Below are positions 26,683 to 64,000 of a DNA stretch of 64,000 bases, one piece after another; positions within the stretch are counted from its first letter, which is position 1, and each line of letters starts with the position of its first letter. The DNA comes from a virus, in IMG/VR virus record IMGVR_UViG_3300017593_000402, positions 64,001-128,000 of that record; one strand, 5' to 3'. The notes under the pieces are model-generated. The model worked only from the letters and a program-made list of their open reading frames with translations. It had not been told where the DNA came from and did not search any database. The position numbers and the translations under genes were made by a program.

Positions 26683-28677
26683 ATGAACATCAATGACCTT
26701 TTGGGTTTTTATTCATCTATTACTGATACAATTAATTTTGTAAGTGGAGAAATATCTAGTTTTGCTGAAGAGGTTAGTGATGTAATTAATTTTGATTTTA
26801 GTGTGCCAGAGCCAACTGAATTTCCTACGAATTTAACTAGATATTCTGACCCATTGGTTGATTTTTCACATTTACCTCAGCTAACTTCAGATTATCCTGA
26901 TTTTGAGGCGTCTCCTGAAAATTATAAGGCGACAATAACTGAATTGCGCCATGCAGTAGATGGTCTTTTAAATACACTCCAAGATATTACGCCTGATTTG
27001 GGTTGTTTTGAATTAAATTCTTTACCCGATCCTCCTAATACTGATATTAATCCTGATTACCCTTCTTTGACATTGGAGTTTGGGAATATACCTTCTCCTC
27101 CAAATATTCCTGACTTAAATATTCCTTCCATACCAAATTTAGAAGAGATTTCGGTTGCAAAAGAAAAACACGTTGTTGAGGATATAATAAGTTATTTTGA
27201 GTCTCTAGCAAATTATATCGGTCAGATCAAACAACTTTTACAGAATCAGTCAATAGATGTTGATACAGACTTTCCTAATGGGGTAAATATCGCTCCTGCT
27301 AAAAAGACTTTAGAAGATTGGTTAGAATGTGATTATAATCCAACTATGACTAAATTAACCAATATAGATTTAGACGGCCTTGCTGATGCAGTAGCTGGTA
27401 CGAATATTGATAGTTACAGATATTATATGCTTCCAGATGGATTTGTCGAGGCTGTTATGGATTTTGCGGAAAACATAGAAGGACTGGATTTAATACGTAA
27501 AGAACCTCTTTCTTATTTAGATTCTTTGAGACTCAGCCGAGAAATAGAAGATATATTAGGTGAGGCTACTGTTAGAGGTTTTAACGAGGATGTAATAGAT
27601 GAAAGAGTAGCCTATGATATTACTTTACACAGAATTCAAACACAGCTTGGTCTTACTGAGAAAAAAGGAAAGATACTGTCTTCGTGTAGTGAACAAATGT
27701 GGAAGGCTGTTGACAGAAAGCCAAAACTTTATAATCAGTTATCTACTTGGCTTCTTGTGTCTTATTATTCTCTTGTTGATAATATACTTAAACTATATCA
27801 AGTTAAAATTAAAACTATTCAGGAAAGGATAGACTTAGTTGACAAAGCTATAAAAGCGAACCAGTCTAGGTTACAAATTCTTTCTGCTTCTGCCTTAAAT
27901 CTTTTTGCTAATATTGAAACTCAAATTCGTAATTTTGTGTCTAAATTAAAATCCCAGGTGTTAGAAATTCAAAGCGAAACTTTGATTTCGCAAGCTGATC
28001 TTTTAGAATCTCAGGCAATAGTCAAAAAAATTACAGAATATGTTCAAAAAATAAGAATTACAGAAGCAAAGCTCAAAGAAATTCAGTCAAGACTTAGTTT
28101 GTATGAAGTTAAAGCAGGATTATTTGAAAGCCAGCTTCGATTTGAAGTCTTAAAGAATAATCAAGTAATACTCGAAAACCAGAATAATGTTTTGTCTACG
28201 TTAACTCAGTTTATTGATTATGATAAGCTTGTAGAGCAATATAGGTTACTAGCCAACATACAAGAAGGAAAATTAAGTGTGTTTAATGATTATATTTCTT
28301 ATTTGATTACAGTAGTATCTAAGCTAACTCAAACACCAAAAGTGGTTAAACTTAGAGGCAGACTAAAAAACCTCCAAGCACAAATAAACAAATTTTTAGT
28401 TCAGAGACAAGCAAAAGATACTGTTATGAATACTTGGCAAGCTTCTCTTTCTGATCGGTGGACTGTTGATTCTTATGACTATAAAAAATTAATGCAAAAA
28501 ATAGTTTATGATGCTCAGGCTGCTGTTACTTTTGCTGAAACTCATTTAATAGATAGAATGGCCAAGGCTTCTGGGAAATTTAATACTTTAGGAGAGTATT
28601 ACTCTAAAAAAGTGGCAGGAGCTTTGTCTGCTGCCCATACAGTTGTTGGAATAACTAACAGGATACTGGAAGGATAA
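26683..28677 (+). CDS. Pro-rich/coiled-coil virion protein (putative ejection protein)
   Basis: Acidic Pro-rich N-half, long helical C-half; same architecture as the next gene. Confidence 0.5.
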   Translation: MNINDLLGFYSSITDTINFVSGEISSFAEEVSDVINFDFSVPEPTEFPTNLTRYSDPLVDFSHLPQLTSDYPDFEASPENYKATITELRHAVDGLLNTLQDITPDLGCFELNSLPDPPNTDINPDYPSLTLEFGNIPSPPNIPDLNIPSIPNLEEISVAKEKHVVEDIISYFESLANYIGQIKQLLQNQSIDVDTDFPNGVNIAPAKKTLEDWLECDYNPTMTKLTNIDLDGLADAVAGTNIDSYRYYMLPDGFVEAVMDFAENIEGLDLIRKEPLSYLDSLRLSREIEDILGEATVRGFNEDVIDERVAYDITLHRIQTQLGLTEKKGKILSSCSEQMWKAVDRKPKLYNQLSTWLLVSYYSLVDNILKLYQVKIKTIQERIDLVDKAIKANQSRLQILSASALNLFANIETQIRNFVSKLKSQVLEIQSETLISQADLLESQAIVKKITEYVQKIRITEAKLKEIQSRLSLYEVKAGLFESQLRFEVLKNNQVILENQNNVLSTLTQFIDYDKLVEQYRLLANIQEGKLSVFNDYISYLITVVSKLTQTPKVVKLRGRLKNLQAQINKFLVQRQAKDTVMNTWQASLSDRWTVDSYDYKKLMQKIVYDAQAAVTFAETHLIDRMAKASGKFNTLGEYYSKKVAGALSAAHTVVGITNRILEG

Positions 28678-28678
28678 A

Positions 28679-30556
28679 ATGAGTTACGATGTAACCTCTC
28701 TTATTTCGGAAAGACTTGATGCTATTGAACACGGAGCGGCTACTACTACAGGAGCGATTAATAGTTTTTTGGATGAGTTTTTGCACAGAGGTGGAATAAG
28801 CATTAGTCTTGCTCCAATTAAAGATTTGCCTATTCAGGTTGAACCTATTCCTGACTTACCAGAGGAAATAAATGTTTCTGATTTAGATTATATTCCTACT
28901 GATTTAACTTTTCCTGATCATCCTATAGAAGAATTTGATTTAAACGAGCTTGTTTCTGAATTTGATTCTATTTCTACAGAAATAGGGCAGAATATAGACA
29001 AACCTCTTATTAGTTCTGTATCTCAAGCTTTAGATTCTATTTCTATGCCTGAAATTCCTGACGATTTAGATTCCATAACTGAACCTTCGTTAGAAGCAAT
29101 TTCTTTGCCTACGCTGCCTTCGTTTGATAAAGTGTCGGTTCCTTATCCAGAATCAATTACAACTGAGTTTTCTCCTGCGGATATACCTTCTCTTGCATTT
29201 ATTGAAACGCAACAGTTATTTAAAGAATTTGATTCTCTTTTACAAAAAGATTTGCAATTTTCTAGGTATGCACATGAATTGATAAGAGATAGACGCTCTC
29301 GAATTAAGGAGTTAATAAATTTTTACGAACGAGTTTTGAATATTCTCAAAACTACCAATCCTCTCCAAAGAGTTGAAAAAGTTATCAATGAAATAAATTT
29401 TATTGTAGATGAGGGAGAGAAAAGATTTATTAGTCCTATTTATGAGAGATACAGTTCTTTTGCTTCTAAAGATGTCAGAGATAAGTTAGAGAATTTGTAT
29501 TACCAGGCCAAAATTTTGAGTACGGGTCAATTGAAAGAAAAATACTTTAGTGAAAACGTTTTCACTGACCGTGATAAAGAAGATGAAATAGAATCTTTAG
29601 AACTTCAACTCAAGGAAGACTTAGATAAACACGAGACTGCTTATATAGATGCCTGCATTCAAGTTTGGAATGTTACTACTTCATATGTTCTTTTGTATGT
29701 AACCAAATTATTAATAGAATTTCAGCAAAGGCTTAATTATGAAAATATTTTGGTTCAGCTCCATGAGGACCTAAGTAAAGCAATTTTGAGATATTATGAT
29801 ATGTATAATGCTTTGCTCCAAGCTGAAAATACACAATTAGATAAGTTCAAAGCTGTTTTGAATAGAGCTAGTATGGAGTTAGATAAAATTCAATCAATTC
29901 TTGAAAAGAACAACGCCTATATAGAGGCTTATGCTGCTCAGGTTAGAGGGCTCCAAACTTTGGTTGATAAGTATAATGTAGATAGAAGACTATACCAAGC
30001 TCAGCTTGCTGAAAGATCATCTAGAGTAGATTTAGCTAGAAGCGTTTATCAAAACAATCAAGCTAAAGTTGATTTATATCAAAGAGCTGTAGCTCTGGTT
30101 AACAAGCTTTATGGTCTAAGACAAGAAAAAGTGAGAGATATTCTTAACAGAGGTAGAATTAAATTGGGGTTTGCTAAAGCTCAACAACAGTTAGACGTGA
30201 CAGTTTCTAAAGCTTTGGAAAACATTTATAATATTTATGGTGATATTATGGAAGTAGATATAGACAGATATAAAGCTGAATATAATAATATTTTGAATGA
30301 TAGTATTTTGGATTATAAAACTAAAGTTAGATTGAATGCGGAACGAGCTAATTTATTAAAACAAGCTTACTCTGTGTTTCTCCAAAAAGTGGGGCAAGAA
30401 GATAGGTATATTTTAACAAGTACTCGATTGATCAATGATATGGCAAACAGATTAGCTATGGAAGCTTTTAGGCCTTTGGCTTCTATGTCTTCTGGATTAT
30501 TGAGTGCTATTGATGCTGTTGTTAATGGGTTATACGAATTTGTAGCTGAGGGATAA
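28679..30556 (+). CDS. Pro-rich/coiled-coil virion protein (putative ejection protein)
   Basis: Same architecture as the preceding gene; IEAYAAQV-type heptads. Confidence 0.5.
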   Translation: MSYDVTSLISERLDAIEHGAATTTGAINSFLDEFLHRGGISISLAPIKDLPIQVEPIPDLPEEINVSDLDYIPTDLTFPDHPIEEFDLNELVSEFDSISTEIGQNIDKPLISSVSQALDSISMPEIPDDLDSITEPSLEAISLPTLPSFDKVSVPYPESITTEFSPADIPSLAFIETQQLFKEFDSLLQKDLQFSRYAHELIRDRRSRIKELINFYERVLNILKTTNPLQRVEKVINEINFIVDEGEKRFISPIYERYSSFASKDVRDKLENLYYQAKILSTGQLKEKYFSENVFTDRDKEDEIESLELQLKEDLDKHETAYIDACIQVWNVTTSYVLLYVTKLLIEFQQRLNYENILVQLHEDLSKAILRYYDMYNALLQAENTQLDKFKAVLNRASMELDKIQSILEKNNAYIEAYAAQVRGLQTLVDKYNVDRRLYQAQLAERSSRVDLARSVYQNNQAKVDLYQRAVALVNKLYGLRQEKVRDILNRGRIKLGFAKAQQQLDVTVSKALENIYNIYGDIMEVDIDRYKAEYNNILNDSILDYKTKVRLNAERANLLKQAYSVFLQKVGQEDRYILTSTRLINDMANRLAMEAFRPLASMSSGLLSAIDAVVNGLYEFVAEG

Positions 30557-59977: not shown

Positions 59978-60280
59978 CATACGAAATGTAAAAAGTAAAA
60001 GTGAAAATGTTTTCACATACAAAATGTAAAAAATGAAAGTGAAAATATTTTCACGCACAAAATAAAAATGAAAACGTTTTCACTCGCTCAGTGGGAGTGT
60101 TTCCAGAAAAAATAAAGTGAGAATATTTTAGGTTGCGAGTGAAAACGTTTTCACTCATAAAAAATAAATTAGAAGGTGAGGTTGTTCCAGGAATTTATTA
60201 AGTGAAAATATTTTCACTGTTGAAGATGTTTTTAGTTTTTGAGAGTGTGGTTATCCACAAAAGTGAAAATATTTTCACTT
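59978..60280. repeat. cluster of six GTGAAAAYRTTTTCAC-type palindromes (protein-binding array)
   Basis: Copies at 60001, 60039, 60068, 60139, 60202, 60263; first two lie within 38-bp imperfect direct repeats; TTATCCACA at 60251. Confidence 0.85.
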
Positions 60281-60311: not shown

Positions 60312-60340
60312 TTGACAGTAATATAAGGTTGTGTTATATT
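60312..60340 (+). promoter_or_regulatory. sigma70-type promoter with extended -10
   Basis: TTGACA-17-TATATT with TGn; heads the operon that includes the RAMP gene. Confidence 0.75.
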
Positions 60341-60640: not shown

Positions 60641-60883
60641 GTGCCAATGGATGCAACGAAAGAGTTAGAAAAGGTAAAGGTTACTCCAGATCAAGAAGCC
60701 TGGCTTAAGGAAAGGATAGAAACAGCAATTCAGATGGCAATGTCATTGAAACAAGCTAGGGAAGTTCAAGCAGACTACTATGCTTATACGTACGGTTTAG
60801 ATGGCGTGATTGAAGGAACTGCGCTTGAAATTATTCACCTGCTTGGTCTGGAGCCTGCTTATGTAAATTTGAGACGAAAATGA
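60641..60883 (+). CDS. hypothetical protein
   Basis: GGGAG RBS; operon packing. Confidence 0.55.
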   Translation: MPMDATKELEKVKVTPDQEAWLKERIETAIQMAMSLKQAREVQADYYAYTYGLDGVIEGTALEIIHLLGLEPAYVNLRRK

Positions 60884-60916
60884 ATGTAACTTTATATAGT
60901 TTTAAGGAGGTAAAGA

Positions 60917-61341
60917 TGAAAAAATACAAAAAGAAGCCAGTAATAGTAAAAGCAGAGAAATGGGCAGGGGAGTTTACGCCTGAGCTTTTGGAAGCATTGA
61001 AAGCAAGCGATCGTCGGTTTGCCAAAGCTAGCAATGGAGACTTATTAATTTCGACTTTGGAAGGTACTATGCGAGCAGCTAAAGGAGACTATATCATCTT
61101 TGGTGTTAATAATGAACCTTATCCTTGTAAACCTGATATTTTTATGAAAACTTATGAGAGGGTTGGAGAAGATGAGTCGCCTAAAGTTTGGAGGGTGGCT
61201 GTTCTTCTAAAGAAAGACTCGAATGAGTGTGATTTTAGGTACCGCATTTTAAGACCCCAGTATTATAGCAAAAAATGGTATTGCGGTAAGCTCAGTGGTA
61301 CTCAGGAATGCACATACGAAAATTGTCCATTTAAGCTATAA
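60917..61341 (+). CDS. conserved phage protein (KKPV...TLEG...GDYII..V..E.YPCKPDIF..TYE) with Cys-rich extension
   Basis: Recognisable widespread phage motif; AAGGAGG RBS. Confidence 0.7.
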
Positions 61342-61718: not shown

Positions 61719-62046
61719 TTATTATAAATTTTTTCATTTCACAGTTACGCTTGGATTGGAATGCGGTTTGGATCATCCTATTGAGTGGGCTGTTAATGTA
61801 TCTAGAACGCCTGGCGGTACTTTGTCTTCTGATTATTATAAAAGAGTAATCAAATACCTCCCTCGTTATCTAGTAGAAATATTTGAGTGCTTTTATTTGA
61901 GACGCCCTGATAACGCTAATGAAGTTTTGAGGATGTGTGACGATCATTATCCAGAAGGACATTTATGTAAAGGTTATTTTTCTGCCCTGAAACCAAAAAT
62001 AGAAGCTTATTTGAAGGAGAATAAAGATGGAAATATTTCATATTGA
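61711..62046 (+). CDS. hypothetical protein
   Basis: Overlap coupling; GAGG RBS. Confidence 0.55.
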   Translation: MNDYYKFFHFTVTLGLECGLDHPIEWAVNVSRTPGGTLSSDYYKRVIKYLPRYLVEIFECFYLRRPDNANEVLRMCDDHYPEGHLCKGYFSALKPKIEAYLKENKDGNISY

Positions 62047-62221
62047 TTTAGAAAAAGTGGAAAATAGGTGTATTGCTGATCCTTCTTTTTATTCGATAGT
62101 CAGCTATTTAGTTAAGTTAATTTTGTCTAAACAGGTGGAGCCTGTGGATTTGTTTGGAGGAGCTGTCCTTGCTGCAAAAATAGCAGAGACACTGTTAGAG
62201 AAGAAACCTTTGACTAATTAG
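62027..62221 (+). CDS. hypothetical protein
   Basis: AAGGAG RBS. Confidence 0.55.
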   Translation: MEIFHIDLEKVENRCIADPSFYSIVSYLVKLILSKQVEPVDLFGGAVLAAKIAETLLEKKPLTN

Positions 62222-62230
62222 GAGGGAAAT

Positions 62231-62584
62231 ATGTATCTATATAAATACGAGAAACCTTATTATGTTCTTTGTGAAGATGGGGTAGAGACATGGAGAGGCA
62301 AAGAAGTAGCTGTAGCTTTTTCTTACCATCCCAATGAAGCTGTTTTGTATAAACATGGTGATCCTGAGTTGGTAGAGAAATGGTATCGTGAAATCCTTCG
62401 TAGGTTTCGGTTAGTGGCTAATCAATTTATTAAATTTTCTACTTTTGAAGAGGAAGTAAAGTTTTGGCAGGATGAATTGGAGAGTATCAAGCTTATAAGA
62501 GGTAAATTTCCTGTAGATGAGTTGAATAAGTGTTTGAGTATTTCTGGGTATATCGGGAGGTTTTATGAGCGACTTCAAGATTGA
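62231..62584 (+). CDS. hypothetical protein
   Basis: GGAGG RBS. Confidence 0.6.
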   Translation: MYLYKYEKPYYVLCEDGVETWRGKEVAVAFSYHPNEAVLYKHGDPELVEKWYREILRRFRLVANQFIKFSTFEEEVKFWQDELESIKLIRGKFPVDELNKCLSISGYIGRFYERLQD

Positions 62585-62747
62585 TTTTCTTGAATATATT
62601 GTAAAAGATATATTGGGAGTGGCTCAATCAGAAAAGTGGAAAGCTAGTGACCAAGTAGCTTCTATCCACGCTGTGTGGATGGAAATTGGACGTAGATTAG
62701 GTAAGGAGATGGATAAAATAAGAAAGATGGAAAGAAATGAAAAGTGA
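62565..62747 (+). CDS. hypothetical protein
   Basis: GGAGG RBS. Confidence 0.55.
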   Translation: MSDFKIDFLEYIVKDILGVAQSEKWKASDQVASIHAVWMEIGRRLGKEMDKIRKMERNEK

Positions 62748-62759
62748 GAGGAGGTTTTT

Positions 62760-63371
62760 ATGAAAAAATTGGTAGAGTTAGAGGAAAGATTTAATGTAAA
62801 AATTAGGTTGTTGGAGCCTTTACTAGGCACGGTTCCTAAAGACCAAGAAGTATATAAAAGGTTTATAGCAAGCAAGGCTCCTGACCCTGAAGGAGGAGAA
62901 GAAGAGACTGAGACTGTGGTGTCAGTAGAAGAGAAAGGCTGGACTGGATTCCATAAGGACGAGAAAGGATTATTTATCTATAATTACATGATTAAAGGCT
63001 TTCTTAAAGCCGCTTGTGAAGTGTGTATGAGTGCAGGAGCATTAGATAAGATTTCAGCATATAAAAAATGGATTGACTTAGTTGTTTTTATCGACCCTCG
63101 ACGGATTTATTTCGGCAAATACGAACCTGATGGGTGTCTTGAAAGACCTTTGCGGACTTTAACGCCTAAAGGCCCAAGAGTTAGTGTTTGCAGAAGTGAT
63201 TATATAAAAGAAGGTACTGAAATAAATTTTATGGTTCGGATTCTGAAGAATAAGGCAGGGATTGACCAAGTTGCGATAGAACAAATGCTTGACTATGGCC
63301 AGTATGTTGGTCTTGGTCAATGGCGAGGTTCAGGAGGTTATGGAAGATTTGAAATAGTAGAGATAACGTGA
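62760..63371 (+). CDS. stand-alone RAMP-superfamily (Cas7/Csm3-like) RNA-binding protein
   Basis: N-terminal strand VKIRLLEPLLG, YMIKGFLKAA helix (cf. GSSLKG.LR), C-terminal glycine-rich loop GLGQWRGSGGYGRF; GGAGG RBS; no cas operon nearby. Confidence 0.8.
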   Translation: MKKLVELEERFNVKIRLLEPLLGTVPKDQEVYKRFIASKAPDPEGGEEETETVVSVEEKGWTGFHKDEKGLFIYNYMIKGFLKAACEVCMSAGALDKISAYKKWIDLVVFIDPRRIYFGKYEPDGCLERPLRTLTPKGPRVSVCRSDYIKEGTEINFMVRILKNKAGIDQVAIEQMLDYGQYVGLGQWRGSGGYGRFEIVEIT

Positions 63372-63372
63372 T

Positions 63373-63637
63373 AGTGGCGTTATGTTAGGTGTGGGTGTGG
63401 TTCAGTAGACCGAAGTTTCGGTTCAGTGAAGTTCAGTTGAGGCAAGGCAAAGTAAATTTTAGTCAAGGTATAGTCGAGTTTAGTTGAGGTATTGCTCAGT
63501 AACGTTCTGGCAATGTAGCGTGCGAAGTAAAGTTTGGGAATAGTACTGTATCTTCAGGCACAGGTAAGGTATCGCAAAGCCTTGGAACAGTATCGCATAT
63601 TTTGGCAAAGGTAAGGCACTGTATGGCTGCGGTGAAC
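63373..63637 (+). ncRNA. pentamer-periodic (NGY)NN repeat array; candidate guide RNA of the RAMP protein
   Basis: About 50 consecutive units, e.g. GGT-TC AGT-GA AGT-TC AGT-TGA GGC-AA GGC-AA AGT-AA; begins 2 nt after the RAMP stop and ends at the next RBS; no ORF of 60 aa or more. Confidence 0.75.
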
Positions 63638-63656
63638 AAAAGGAGGTGAGTAATTT

Positions 63657-63992
63657 ATGAAAGTTCTATCAACAGGTCCGTTGGAGTCTCGGTTACAGGT
63701 TTTACCTGGGTTACGTGAAAGGAGAGGAGTTCTCTATATAGATTTTAATTTTTATATGGAAAACTCACATATAGTAGGAGAGGTGTTTCATAAGTTAAAC
63801 ATAGTTCCAATTCAAGTTAGTACTAATTTAGCTGTTGAGAAAGTATTCGTTTATTTTGTGAGTCCTTTGTTAGACAAAACTCCTTTAGGGTACAGACCAC
63901 CTATGTTTGAGGTTGAGATTGAAACTGATGACGGTACATATATTAAAAATGTAAAATTAGTAGAAAGAGAGGTTGATAGGTATGAAATGTAA
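63657..63992 (+). CDS. hypothetical protein
   Basis: AAGGAGGTGA RBS. Confidence 0.6.
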   Translation: MKVLSTGPLESRLQVLPGLRERRGVLYIDFNFYMENSHIVGEVFHKLNIVPIQVSTNLAVEKVFVYFVSPLLDKTPLGYRPPMFEVEIETDDGTYIKNVKLVEREVDRYEM

Positions 63993-64000
63993 GATTGAGA

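What the first reader, a model, noticed from the sequence alone, without database searches (positions are those of the whole stretch)
63373..63637. Higher-order grammar inside the array: 21/26-nt blocks closed by a 6-nt unit, relaxed NGY triplets
Parsed by hand from 63394: [GGT-GT GGT-TC AGT-AG ACC-GA AGT-TTC] [GGT-TC AGT-GA AGT-TC AGT-TGA] [GGC-AA GGC-AA AGT-AA ATT-TT AGT-CAA] [GGT-AT AGT-CG AGT-TT AGT-TGA] [GGT-AT TGC-TC AGT-AA CGT-TCT], one irregular 33-nt block, then [AGT-AC TGT-AT CTT-CA GGC-ACA] [GGT-AA GGT-AT CGC-AA AGC-CT TGG-AAC] [AGT-AT CGC-AT ATT-TT GGC-AAA] [GGT-AA GGC-AC TGT-AT GGC-TGC]. Every 4th or 5th unit has one extra base, and blocks usually restart with GGY. The triplet is AGT, GGY, TGY or CGY rather than strictly GGY. 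This is not a simple microsatellite, because variable positions differ while phase is kept. Inference: the 6-nt units mark processing boundaries or helical phase correction (21 nt is about two DNA turns).
Basis: partly seen in the sequence, partly recalled or inferred. Interest (0 to 1): 0.75.

Follow-up and report, generated by a model that had tools for sequence, protein, structure and literature searches.

The report
Staggered VIPR guide-RNA array in phage
The five-base rhythm with one extra base every 21 or 26 bases is real; it is the guide-RNA array of a phage VIPR system, a CRISPR relative described in 2026, so this is a new example of a known kind.

Summary
Observation confirmed. Window 63373-63635 holds 50 NGY+NN units. 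Twelve units carry extra bases (11 six-base, 1 seven-base), spaced every 3-5 units. Only 2 of 100,000 random placements are as regular. The Fourier peak at 5.28 nt beats 0 of 500 shuffles.

The array lies directly after a 203-aa gene with a Cas7-like RAMP fold. That protein is homologous to the Vipr protein of phage SUSP1 (hhalign 90%). This is therefore a VIPR system (bioRxiv 10.64898/2026.04.26.720920).

The grammar holds across the family:
- 73 of 82 related loci carry such an array beside the gene.
- 18% of 6,948 units are six-base.
- Block size peaks at 5-6 units, and the unit after a slip starts with G in 87%.
- Type II arrays (SUSP1 kind) lack this punctuation, but their repeat tracts end with the same +1 slip followed by GGY.

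Best reading: each slip ends one short guide and starts the next. This probably matches the paper's "staggered vrRNA arrays", a figure I could not see. The reading "21 nt equals two DNA turns" is not supported. No target was found.

This scan has noted the same grammar in at least 26 other genomes.

The parts
62760..63371 (+). vipr gene: 203-aa lone RAMP (Cas7-like) protein. G-loop reads GLGQWRGSGGYGRF.
   Evidence: ORF. AlphaFold2 model has pLDDT 85.4. Top Foldseek hits are type VII Cas7 and Csm3, E 5.6e-8. hhalign against the SUSP1 Vipr family gives Prob 90.2%, E 1.5e-6 over 175 columns. 405 homologues found; none of the 120 listed has a Pfam domain.
63373..63635 (+). vrRNA array: 50 NGY+NN units in 12 blocks plus one last unit. 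It is the only such array in the 137-kb genome.
63373..63508 (+). Blocks 1-6: 63373-63393 (21 nt), 63394-63419 (26), 63420-63440 (21), 63441-63466 (26), 63467-63487 (21), 63488-63508 (21). Each is closed by a 6-nt unit. Blocks 2-6 start with GGY.
   Evidence: Parse; counts.
63509..63541 (+). Two short degenerate blocks: 63509-63525 (17 nt, closed by a 7-nt unit) and 63526-63541 (16 nt). The blocks that follow them start AGT rather than GGY. L006 has the same block layout here.
63542..63635 (+). Blocks 9-12: 63542-63562 (21 nt), 63563-63583 (21), 63584-63609 (26), 63610-63630 (21), then a final unit GGT-GA at 63631-63635.
63641..63992 (+). Ribosome-binding site (AAAGGAGGTGA) and a 111-aa ORF (63657-63992) directly after the array. 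The ORF is an orphan and is not a recognisable vap gene.
   Evidence: No Pfam hit. Only 2 proteins at E <= 0.001: one identical to the query (100%) and one 77% relative. No conserved neighbour gene across loci by blastp.

Best explanation
The stretch is the guide-RNA (vrRNA) array of a phage VIPR system (Viral Interference Programmable Repeat). It is probably transcribed together with the vipr gene just upstream.

By homology with the SUSP1 system, one Vipr protomer binds each pentamer. It buries the G-Y scaffold and presents the two variable bases, which read target DNA two bases at a time while skipping every third base.

The 6-nt units are +1 register slips. Each ends one short run of repeats, and the next run restarts with a strict GGY. 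The array is therefore a head-to-tail string of 12 short guide modules of 3-5 repeats with no 3' tails. This is most likely the 'staggered vrRNA array' architecture of the VIPR paper, with the relaxed YNNNG-type repeat.

Shown here: the grammar, its conservation across the family, and the protein's fold and homology. Inferred: transcription, protein binding per repeat, that filaments stop at the slips, and any target.
For: System identity:
- Cas7-like RAMP fold.
- Full-length profile homology to the SUSP1 Vipr family: Prob 90.2%, E 1.5e-6. The G-loop GQWR aligns with GDWR of SUSP1.
- A weak direct hit to PDB chain 36pp_D, 'SUSP1 Vipr protein', E 0.46.
- 73 of 82 distinct related loci have an array next to the gene: 69 arrays downstream and 9 upstream.
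- The best chain lies on the gene's strand in 83 of 86 sequences. The 3 exceptions score 15.4 or less.
- The N4N5 dinucleotides resemble codon positions 1-2 (r 0.70, against 0.33 and -0.08 for the other frames). This matches the published wobble-skip rule.

Slips as boundaries:
- Block sizes over 1,184 blocks: 943 (80%) are 4-7 units, with variance 3.28. Simulated random placement, parsed by the same program, gives variance 19-23.
- The unit after a slip has G at position 1 in 87% and A at position 4 in 61%. Mid-block units have G at position 1 in 31%. The last unit of a block tends to read GC-AA-N.
- Type II control: in 77 loci, only 99 of 663 blocks are 4-7 units, and the tracts run 8-18 units. 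Yet 56 of 90 distinct tracts, and 3 of 4 in SUSP1, end with one extra base followed by GGY.
- Window versus L006 (97% protein identity): the indels are exactly one 26-nt block and one 5-nt unit.
- All blocks keep the codon 1-2 composition. A model in which the frame cycles by one base per block is worse by about 250 nats. An extra target base per slip in a continuous coding target is therefore disfavoured.
Against: - No RNA evidence exists for transcription or for ends at the slips.
- No target was found for any block or pair of blocks, so the reading rule at a slip is untested.
- Guides of 3-5 repeats specify only 6-10 bases. The main texts I read show function only for 9-16-repeat type II vrRNAs.
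- Purine richness at N4 could reflect protein preference rather than codon mimicry, which weakens the frame argument.
- Only one closely related array pair exists for the indel argument.
- Equating this array with the paper's 'staggered arrays' rests on a figure legend alone.
- No vap gene was found.
Confidence: 0.6

Rival explanations
1. The array gives one or two long vrRNAs coated by a continuous Vipr filament. The extra base every 4-7 repeats is a tolerated bulge that relieves strain or keeps the filament in phase about once per helical turn. The published filament has 6 subunits per turn alone and 5 per turn on DNA.
For: Block size peaks at 5-6 units, close to the published 5-6 subunits per turn (10.64898/2026.04.26.720927, Results part 1). 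Block size is specific to each array (ANOVA p 1e-34), as expected if it tracks the protein. All blocks keep the same codon-like frame, which also fits a continuous target with no extra target base.
Against: Within one array the block size still varies (mean sd 1.07 units), so the spacing is not a strict geometric ruler. The strict GGY restart and the GC-AA-N ending look like end signals. The same slip ends type II repeat tracts. Exact scans with a cross-boundary pattern and no extra target base found nothing.
Confidence: 0.25
2. The extra bases are neutral decay of a pentamer array (replication slippage or point insertions) and have no role.
For: [quoted passage not shown] The window has two degenerate short blocks.
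Against: Regular spacing: 2 of 100,000 random placements match the window, and family-wide variance is 3.28 against 19-23 for random placement. A specific sequence signature sits at the slips. Only +1 is common: the first parse gave 1,172 six-base units among 6,417 units in 66 arrays, with few 4- or 7-base units per locus.
Confidence: 0.05
3. One reading: the blocks keep a motif in phase with the DNA helix (21 nt is about two turns), for example as a protein-binding or packaging site.
For: The window's mean period of 5.28 nt is close to half a helical turn.
Against: Blocks range from 21 to 36 nt across relatives. There is a strict strand bias toward the gene's strand. The neighbouring protein is an RNA-binding RAMP homologous to Vipr.
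Confidence: 0.03
4. A TRAP-like attenuation site: triplets with 2-3-nt spacers wrapped around a ring protein.
For: The grammar of triplet plus 2-3-nt spacer resembles the TRAP binding site. That resemblance is recalled from memory and was not tested.
Against: There are 50 units rather than about 11. The triplet is NGY, not (G/U)AG. The partner protein has a RAMP fold. No Rfam family matched.
Confidence: 0.02

Closest known systems
VIPR systems with 'staggered vrRNA arrays' and YNNNG-type repeats (bioRxiv 10.64898/2026.04.26.720920: Results, methods section 20, legend of fig. S18)
   Same: A lone small RAMP gene in a phage, with a same-strand pentamer array beside it. The first G is relaxed (NGY+NN is the same as YNNNG). 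Successive short runs abut, so that the end of one marks the start of the next.
   Different: I saw only the legend, not the figure or data tables, so the match is an inference. The main texts I read do not describe the 5n+1 block rule, the strict GGY restart, the size distribution (mode 5-6 units; 3-5 here), or its dependence on lineage.
Type II VIPR of Escherichia phage SUSP1 (KT454805; vipr at 28474-29061, minus strand)
   Same: Homologous protein (hhalign 90%). G-loop G(D/Q)WR...GRF. One repeat per 5 nt. Repeat tracts end with a +1 slip then GGY.
   Different: SUSP1 has strict GGY, tracts of 11-14 repeats by my parser (9-16 in the paper), a roughly 45-nt 3' tail with a pseudoknot, and a vap1 gene. 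The window has NGY, 3-5 repeats per block, no tail, and no recognisable vap. The residues that read G1 in SUSP1 (H17, D177) align with T24 and Q187 here. This rests on an alignment at 20% identity and is an inference.
Class 1 CRISPR Cas7/Csm3 backbone filaments
   Same: RAMP fold with thumb and G-loop (Foldseek E 5.6e-8 to type VII Cas7 and Csm3). One protomer per fixed RNA step.
   Different: No CRISPR repeats or spacers. No other cas gene was recognised among the neighbours scanned. The step is 5 nt rather than 6 nt. The protein has a single RRM.
TRAP binding sites in Bacillus trp leaders (recalled, not tested)
   Same: Triplets separated by 2-3 variable bases.
   Different: Different triplet, different copy number, and a different partner protein.

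Membership tests
VIPR system (Vipr + vrRNA) | Small single-RRM RAMP protein with thumb and glycine-rich loop | tested here: met
   AlphaFold2 model, pLDDT 85.4, pTM 0.79. 164 PDB chains at E <= 0.001; the top ones are type VII Cas7 and Csm3. Long beta-hairpin at residues 125-149 and G-loop at 182-196.
VIPR system (Vipr + vrRNA) | Sequence homology to an experimentally studied Vipr protein | tested here: met
   Profile-profile hhalign of A1 (40 sequences) against A3 (26 SUSP1-family sequences): Prob 90.2%, E 1.5e-6, 175 columns. Against the single SUSP1 protein: Prob 68%, 45 columns. PDB sequence search gave 36pp_D at E 0.46 only.
VIPR system (Vipr + vrRNA) | Flanking tandem pentamer array with a fixed G-rich triplet and variable NN, on the gene's strand | tested here: met
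   50 units, 44 with G2 and Y3. 73 of 82 related loci have such an array. 83 of 86 sequences have it on the gene's strand.
VIPR system (Vipr + vrRNA) | Viral, non-CRISPR context | tested here: met
   The genome is a 137-kb single contig carrying phage genes (PHROG hits). There are no CRISPR-like tandem repeats in the window. Relatives were found in IMG/VR (353). I ran no dedicated search for cas genes.
VIPR system (Vipr + vrRNA) | Accessory vap gene | tested here: not met
   No neighbour gene is shared across loci by blastp. Ten downstream ORFs have no common Pfam family. The window's downstream ORF has only 2 proteins at E <= 0.001, one of them identical to itself. The paper names six vap genes for seven types, so one type may lack a vap; that is my inference.
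VIPR system (Vipr + vrRNA) | Expressed vrRNA that co-purifies with Vipr | not testable with these tools
   No RNA holder is listed for this DNA.
VIPR system (Vipr + vrRNA) | NN bases match natural targets by the 1-nt skip rule | tested here: inconclusive
   NN composition fits codon positions 1-2. No target was found: 1 Mb of held DNA, 4 exact scans of IMG/VR (plus analysis), and 2 exact scans of metagenomes.
Staggered vrRNA array (fig. S18 of the VIPR paper) | Adjacent vrRNAs whose boundaries overlap by 1 nt, so that the end of one is the start of the next | tested here: inconclusive
   The 5n+1 blocks joined at a GG fit the legend's wording. The figure and data tables were not available.
CRISPR array | Direct repeats of about 20 nt or more, separated by unique spacers (recalled definition) | tested here: not met
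   TRF finds no such array. The repeating unit here is 5-6 nt.

The most novel reading that the evidence does not exclude
A one-base register slip followed by GGY is the RNA-encoded stop and restart signal for Vipr filament growth in all VIPR types. In type II it sits once, in front of the tail. In this clade it recurs every 3-7 repeats, and the tail has shrunk to a single base. The array would then make strings of one-turn mini-filaments with footprints of 9-21 bp. Module length would be set by lineage (means of 4.2-7.2 repeats), and the modules might act together on one transcript.
Probability: 0.3. Interest if true: 0.55.

Novelty: new member of a known kind. Interest (0 to 1): 0.3.

Why it matters
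VIPR is a newly described RNA-guided DNA-binding system. This locus adds a hydrothermal-vent phage member that lacks a vap gene. Its guide modules are the shortest among the 65 arrays I compared (3-5 repeats).

The family-wide counts give a simple rule for splitting such arrays into guides, which strict 5-nt callers would miss: 5n+1 blocks, a strict GGY restart, and the same slip at the end of type II tracts. The counts also suggest that guide length is written in the RNA by a one-base slip. That would bear on how filament length is set and on the design of minimal guides.

It does not open a new class. The same grammar has been noted many times in this scan.

Tried and rejected
Searches that gave nothing:
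- Rfam at E <= 10 on 62000-64000: only a chance U6atac match outside the array.
- Pfam, NCBIfam and PADLOC on the protein: nothing meaningful.
- blastn of the locus against phages: no match.
- RNA fold of the array: z -0.02, so no structure signal.
- RNA evidence: no RNA holder listed. The four DNA runs held contigs identical to the window, with no variants.

Target hunts:
- (a) All 66 arrays against 1 Mb of held DNA, with steps of 2-5 nt per unit and 0-2 extra bases at a slip. Real guides did no better than shuffled ones.
- (b) Exact IMG/VR scan with 9 units of a 12-unit block of L062: 0 hits.
- (c) The same with 9 units of an 11-unit block of L029: 30 hits at 3 independent sites. 28 of the 30 are one gene end in related contigs, in codon frame. 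The block's first and last units and its neighbouring blocks do not match, so I treat this as chance.
- (d) Window units spanning two slips. With no extra target base: 0 hits in IMG/VR and 0 in metagenomes. With one extra base: 9 hits at 5 independent sites, none extending, so treated as chance.

Stop-codon depletion in N4-N5-N1 triplets was mild (0.58-0.84 of expectation) and decided nothing. Near-identical blocks shared between arrays were few: 11 pairs among 1,192 internal blocks. Array-against-array blastn gave only one truly homologous pair. I considered the TRAP-like and DNA-phasing readings and set them aside (see rival explanations).

Supplementary files and figures of the papers were not available. 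Fig. S17 and S18 and data S4 of 10.64898/2026.04.26.720920 may already show this grammar and this clade. In the main texts, my searches for '6 nt', 'hexa', 'bulge', 'extra nucleotide', 'six-nucleotide', 'irregular', 'interrupt' and 'frameshift' found nothing relevant.

What I saw of each paper:
- 10.64898/2026.04.26.720920: abstract, Results, Discussion, methods sections 18 and 20, and passages including the legends of the supplementary figures.
- 10.64898/2026.04.26.720927: abstract, Results part 1 of 2, and passages.
- 10.64898/2026.10.15.759431: abstract, section 17, and a term search.
- 10.64898/2026.10.21.760802: passages only.

Full report
**What is there.** Window 63373-63635 is the whole gap between a 203-aa ORF (62760-63371, + strand) and the ribosome-binding site of a 111-aa ORF (63657-63992). 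A Fourier scan shows a sharp peak at 5.25-5.3 nt that is unique in the 64-kb window. The power is 11.65 at 5.28 nt. None of 500 neighbour-preserving shuffles (maximum 4.65) or 500 mononucleotide shuffles (maximum 3.75) reaches it.

A dynamic-programming parser scored only N-G-Y at the first three positions of each unit and allowed units of 4-7 nt. The array has 50 units in 263 nt. G is at position 2 in 46 units and a pyrimidine at position 3 in 48; position 1 is free. There are 11 six-base units and one seven-base unit. Block sizes are 4,5,4,5,4,4,3,3,4,4,5,4 units. Spacing this regular arises in 2 of 100,000 random placements. The unit after a long unit starts with GG in 10 of 12 cases, against 9 of 37 elsewhere.

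**What it is.** The upstream protein has no Pfam, NCBIfam or PADLOC match. It does have 405 homologues at E <= 0.001. With a 40-sequence alignment, AlphaFold2 gives a confident model (pLDDT 85.4). The best PDB matches of that model are Cas7 of type VII and Csm3 of type III CRISPR systems (E 5.6e-8). A profile search of PDB sequences gave weak hits to a type VII Cas7 and to 'SUSP1 Vipr protein' (E 0.42 and 0.46). That hit led me to three 2026 preprints on VIPR systems.

In those papers, a lone ancestral RAMP (Vipr) polymerises on a vrRNA made of GGY/NN pentamers, one protomer per repeat. The NN bases read DNA while skipping every third base.

I located the SUSP1 locus and built an alignment of its protein family. 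A profile-profile comparison with the window's family gives Prob 90.2%, E 1.5e-6 over 175 columns. The G-loop GLGQWR...GRF aligns with GVGDWR...GRF. The methods of the first paper mention relaxed repeats (NNNGG, YNNNG, NNNNG). The window's NGY+NN unit is the YNNNG form.

**The pairing is conserved.** All 5 phage records with a homologue show their strongest ~5.1-5.2-nt periodicity next to the gene. IMG/VR holds 353 relatives, of which I fetched 80. With the gene masked, 73 of 82 distinct loci have an array scoring at least 25 beside it: 69 arrays downstream and 9 upstream. When both strands were parsed, the best chain lay on the gene's strand in 83 of 86 sequences, and the 3 exceptions scored 15.4 or less. 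The window's genome is a single 137-kb contig and has only this one array. No CRISPR-like repeats occur in the window.

No accessory gene is shared between loci. The window's downstream ORF has only 2 proteins at E <= 0.001, one of them identical to itself. The paper names six vap genes for seven types, so a type without vap may exist. That is my inference.

**The higher-order grammar is a family trait.** Of 6,948 units in 78 arrays, 18.1% are six-base. Block sizes over 1,184 blocks are:

| Block size (units) | 1 | 2 | 3 | 4 | 5 | 6 | 7 | 8 | 9 | 10+ |
|---|---|---|---|---|---|---|---|---|---|---|
| Blocks | 58 | 55 | 42 | 193 | 335 | 291 | 124 | 49 | 21 | 16 |

The variance is 3.28. Synthetic arrays built from the real units, with six-base units placed at random, were parsed correctly by the same program and gave variances of 19-23. 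The regular spacing is therefore not made by the parser.

The unit after a slip has G at position 1 in 87% (GGC 48%, GGT 31%) and A at position 4 in 61%. Mid-block units have G at position 1 in 31%. The closing unit tends to read GC-AA-N. Block size differs between arrays (ANOVA p 1e-34). Array means run from 4.18 units (this window, the lowest of 65 arrays) to 7.17, with a mean within-array sd of 1.07. Blocks are almost all unique: there are 11 near-identical pairs among 1,192 internal blocks.

**Controls in type II VIPR.** In SUSP1 the same parser finds uninterrupted 5-nt runs followed by ~45-nt tails. In 77 distinct type II loci, only 99 of 663 blocks are 4-7 units long, and strict runs are 8-18 units. 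The punctuation every 3-7 repeats therefore belongs to the window's clade.

However, 56 of 90 distinct type II runs, and 3 of 4 in SUSP1, are followed by exactly one extra base and then GGY. The slip thus also marks the end of the repeat tracts of type II vrRNAs; for SUSP1 the vrRNAs themselves were mapped by the authors' small-RNA sequencing.

Four results support the view that each slip ends one short guide and starts the next:
- the restart signature at the slip;
- the type II analogy;
- the only close relative, L006 (97% protein identity, 88% array identity), differing by exactly one 26-nt block and one 5-nt unit;
- the legend of fig. S18 ('staggered vrRNA arrays... [quoted passage not shown]

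The variable dinucleotides resemble codon positions 1-2 (r 0.70) in every block. A model with the frame advancing one base per block is about 250 nats worse. A continuous coding target with one extra base per slip is therefore unlikely. This argument is weak if the purine bias at N4 comes from the protein rather than from targets.

A continuous filament with a tolerated bulge about once per turn remains a live rival. The structure paper gives 5-6 subunits per turn.

**What failed.**
- No RNA run holds this DNA, and the DNA runs are identical to the window.
- No target was found in held DNA or by six exact scans. The hits that did appear did not extend beyond the pattern.

**Standing.** The class, the relaxed repeat and, probably, the staggered layout are in print (preprints of April-October 2026). 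Notes from this scan report VIPR arrays in at least 379 genomes and the same 5n+1 grammar in at least 26. Those notes are AI-written and not independent evidence, and I read them after forming my own reading. This locus is a new member of a known kind. The family-wide counts and the shared slip at type II tract ends are small additions.

Noticed in passing
L044:1038-1953 and L044:2576-4232: One IMG/VR relative carries very large arrays on both sides of its vipr gene: 176 units upstream and 318 units downstream, about 2.6 kb in all.
   Followed up: no
L117-L196 and L086:27400-29600 (minus strand): In type II VIPR arrays the strict pentamer tract ends with one extra base followed by GGY, in 56 of 90 distinct runs and in 3 of 4 SUSP1 tracts. 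Common endings are GGTAT|GGGT and GGCAA|GGGC.
   Followed up: partly
L087-L116 (for example L087:139-164): Nine units of an L029 block match the 3' end of a gene exactly and in codon frame. The match lies just before the next gene's ribosome-binding site and recurs in 28 related IMG/VR contigs of about 35-42 kb. The flanking units do not match, so I scored it as chance, but it was not resolved.
   Followed up: partly
window 59978-60063 and 60312-60340: A 38-bp tandem repeat (2.3 copies, TRF score 130) lies about 250 bp upstream of a near-consensus promoter-like site (TTGACA, 17 nt, TATATT; 11 of 12). That site heads the same-strand string of small genes that contains vipr. Earlier first-reader notes describe palindromes and a DnaA box here.
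   Followed up: no
window 60880-61341: A 153-aa ORF matches PHROG 419 (E 6.7e-31, function unknown) and related families.
   Followed up: no
window 62760-63371, residues T24 and Q187: The SUSP1 residues reported to read the first G of GGY (H17, D177) align with T24 and Q187, which are invariant in this clade. This might go with the relaxed first position. The alignment has only 20% identity.
   Followed up: partly
L197-L205: The cross-slip pattern with one extra target base gave 9 metagenome hits (5 independent sites), while the pattern without it gave 0. None of the hits extends into flanking units.
   Followed up: yes
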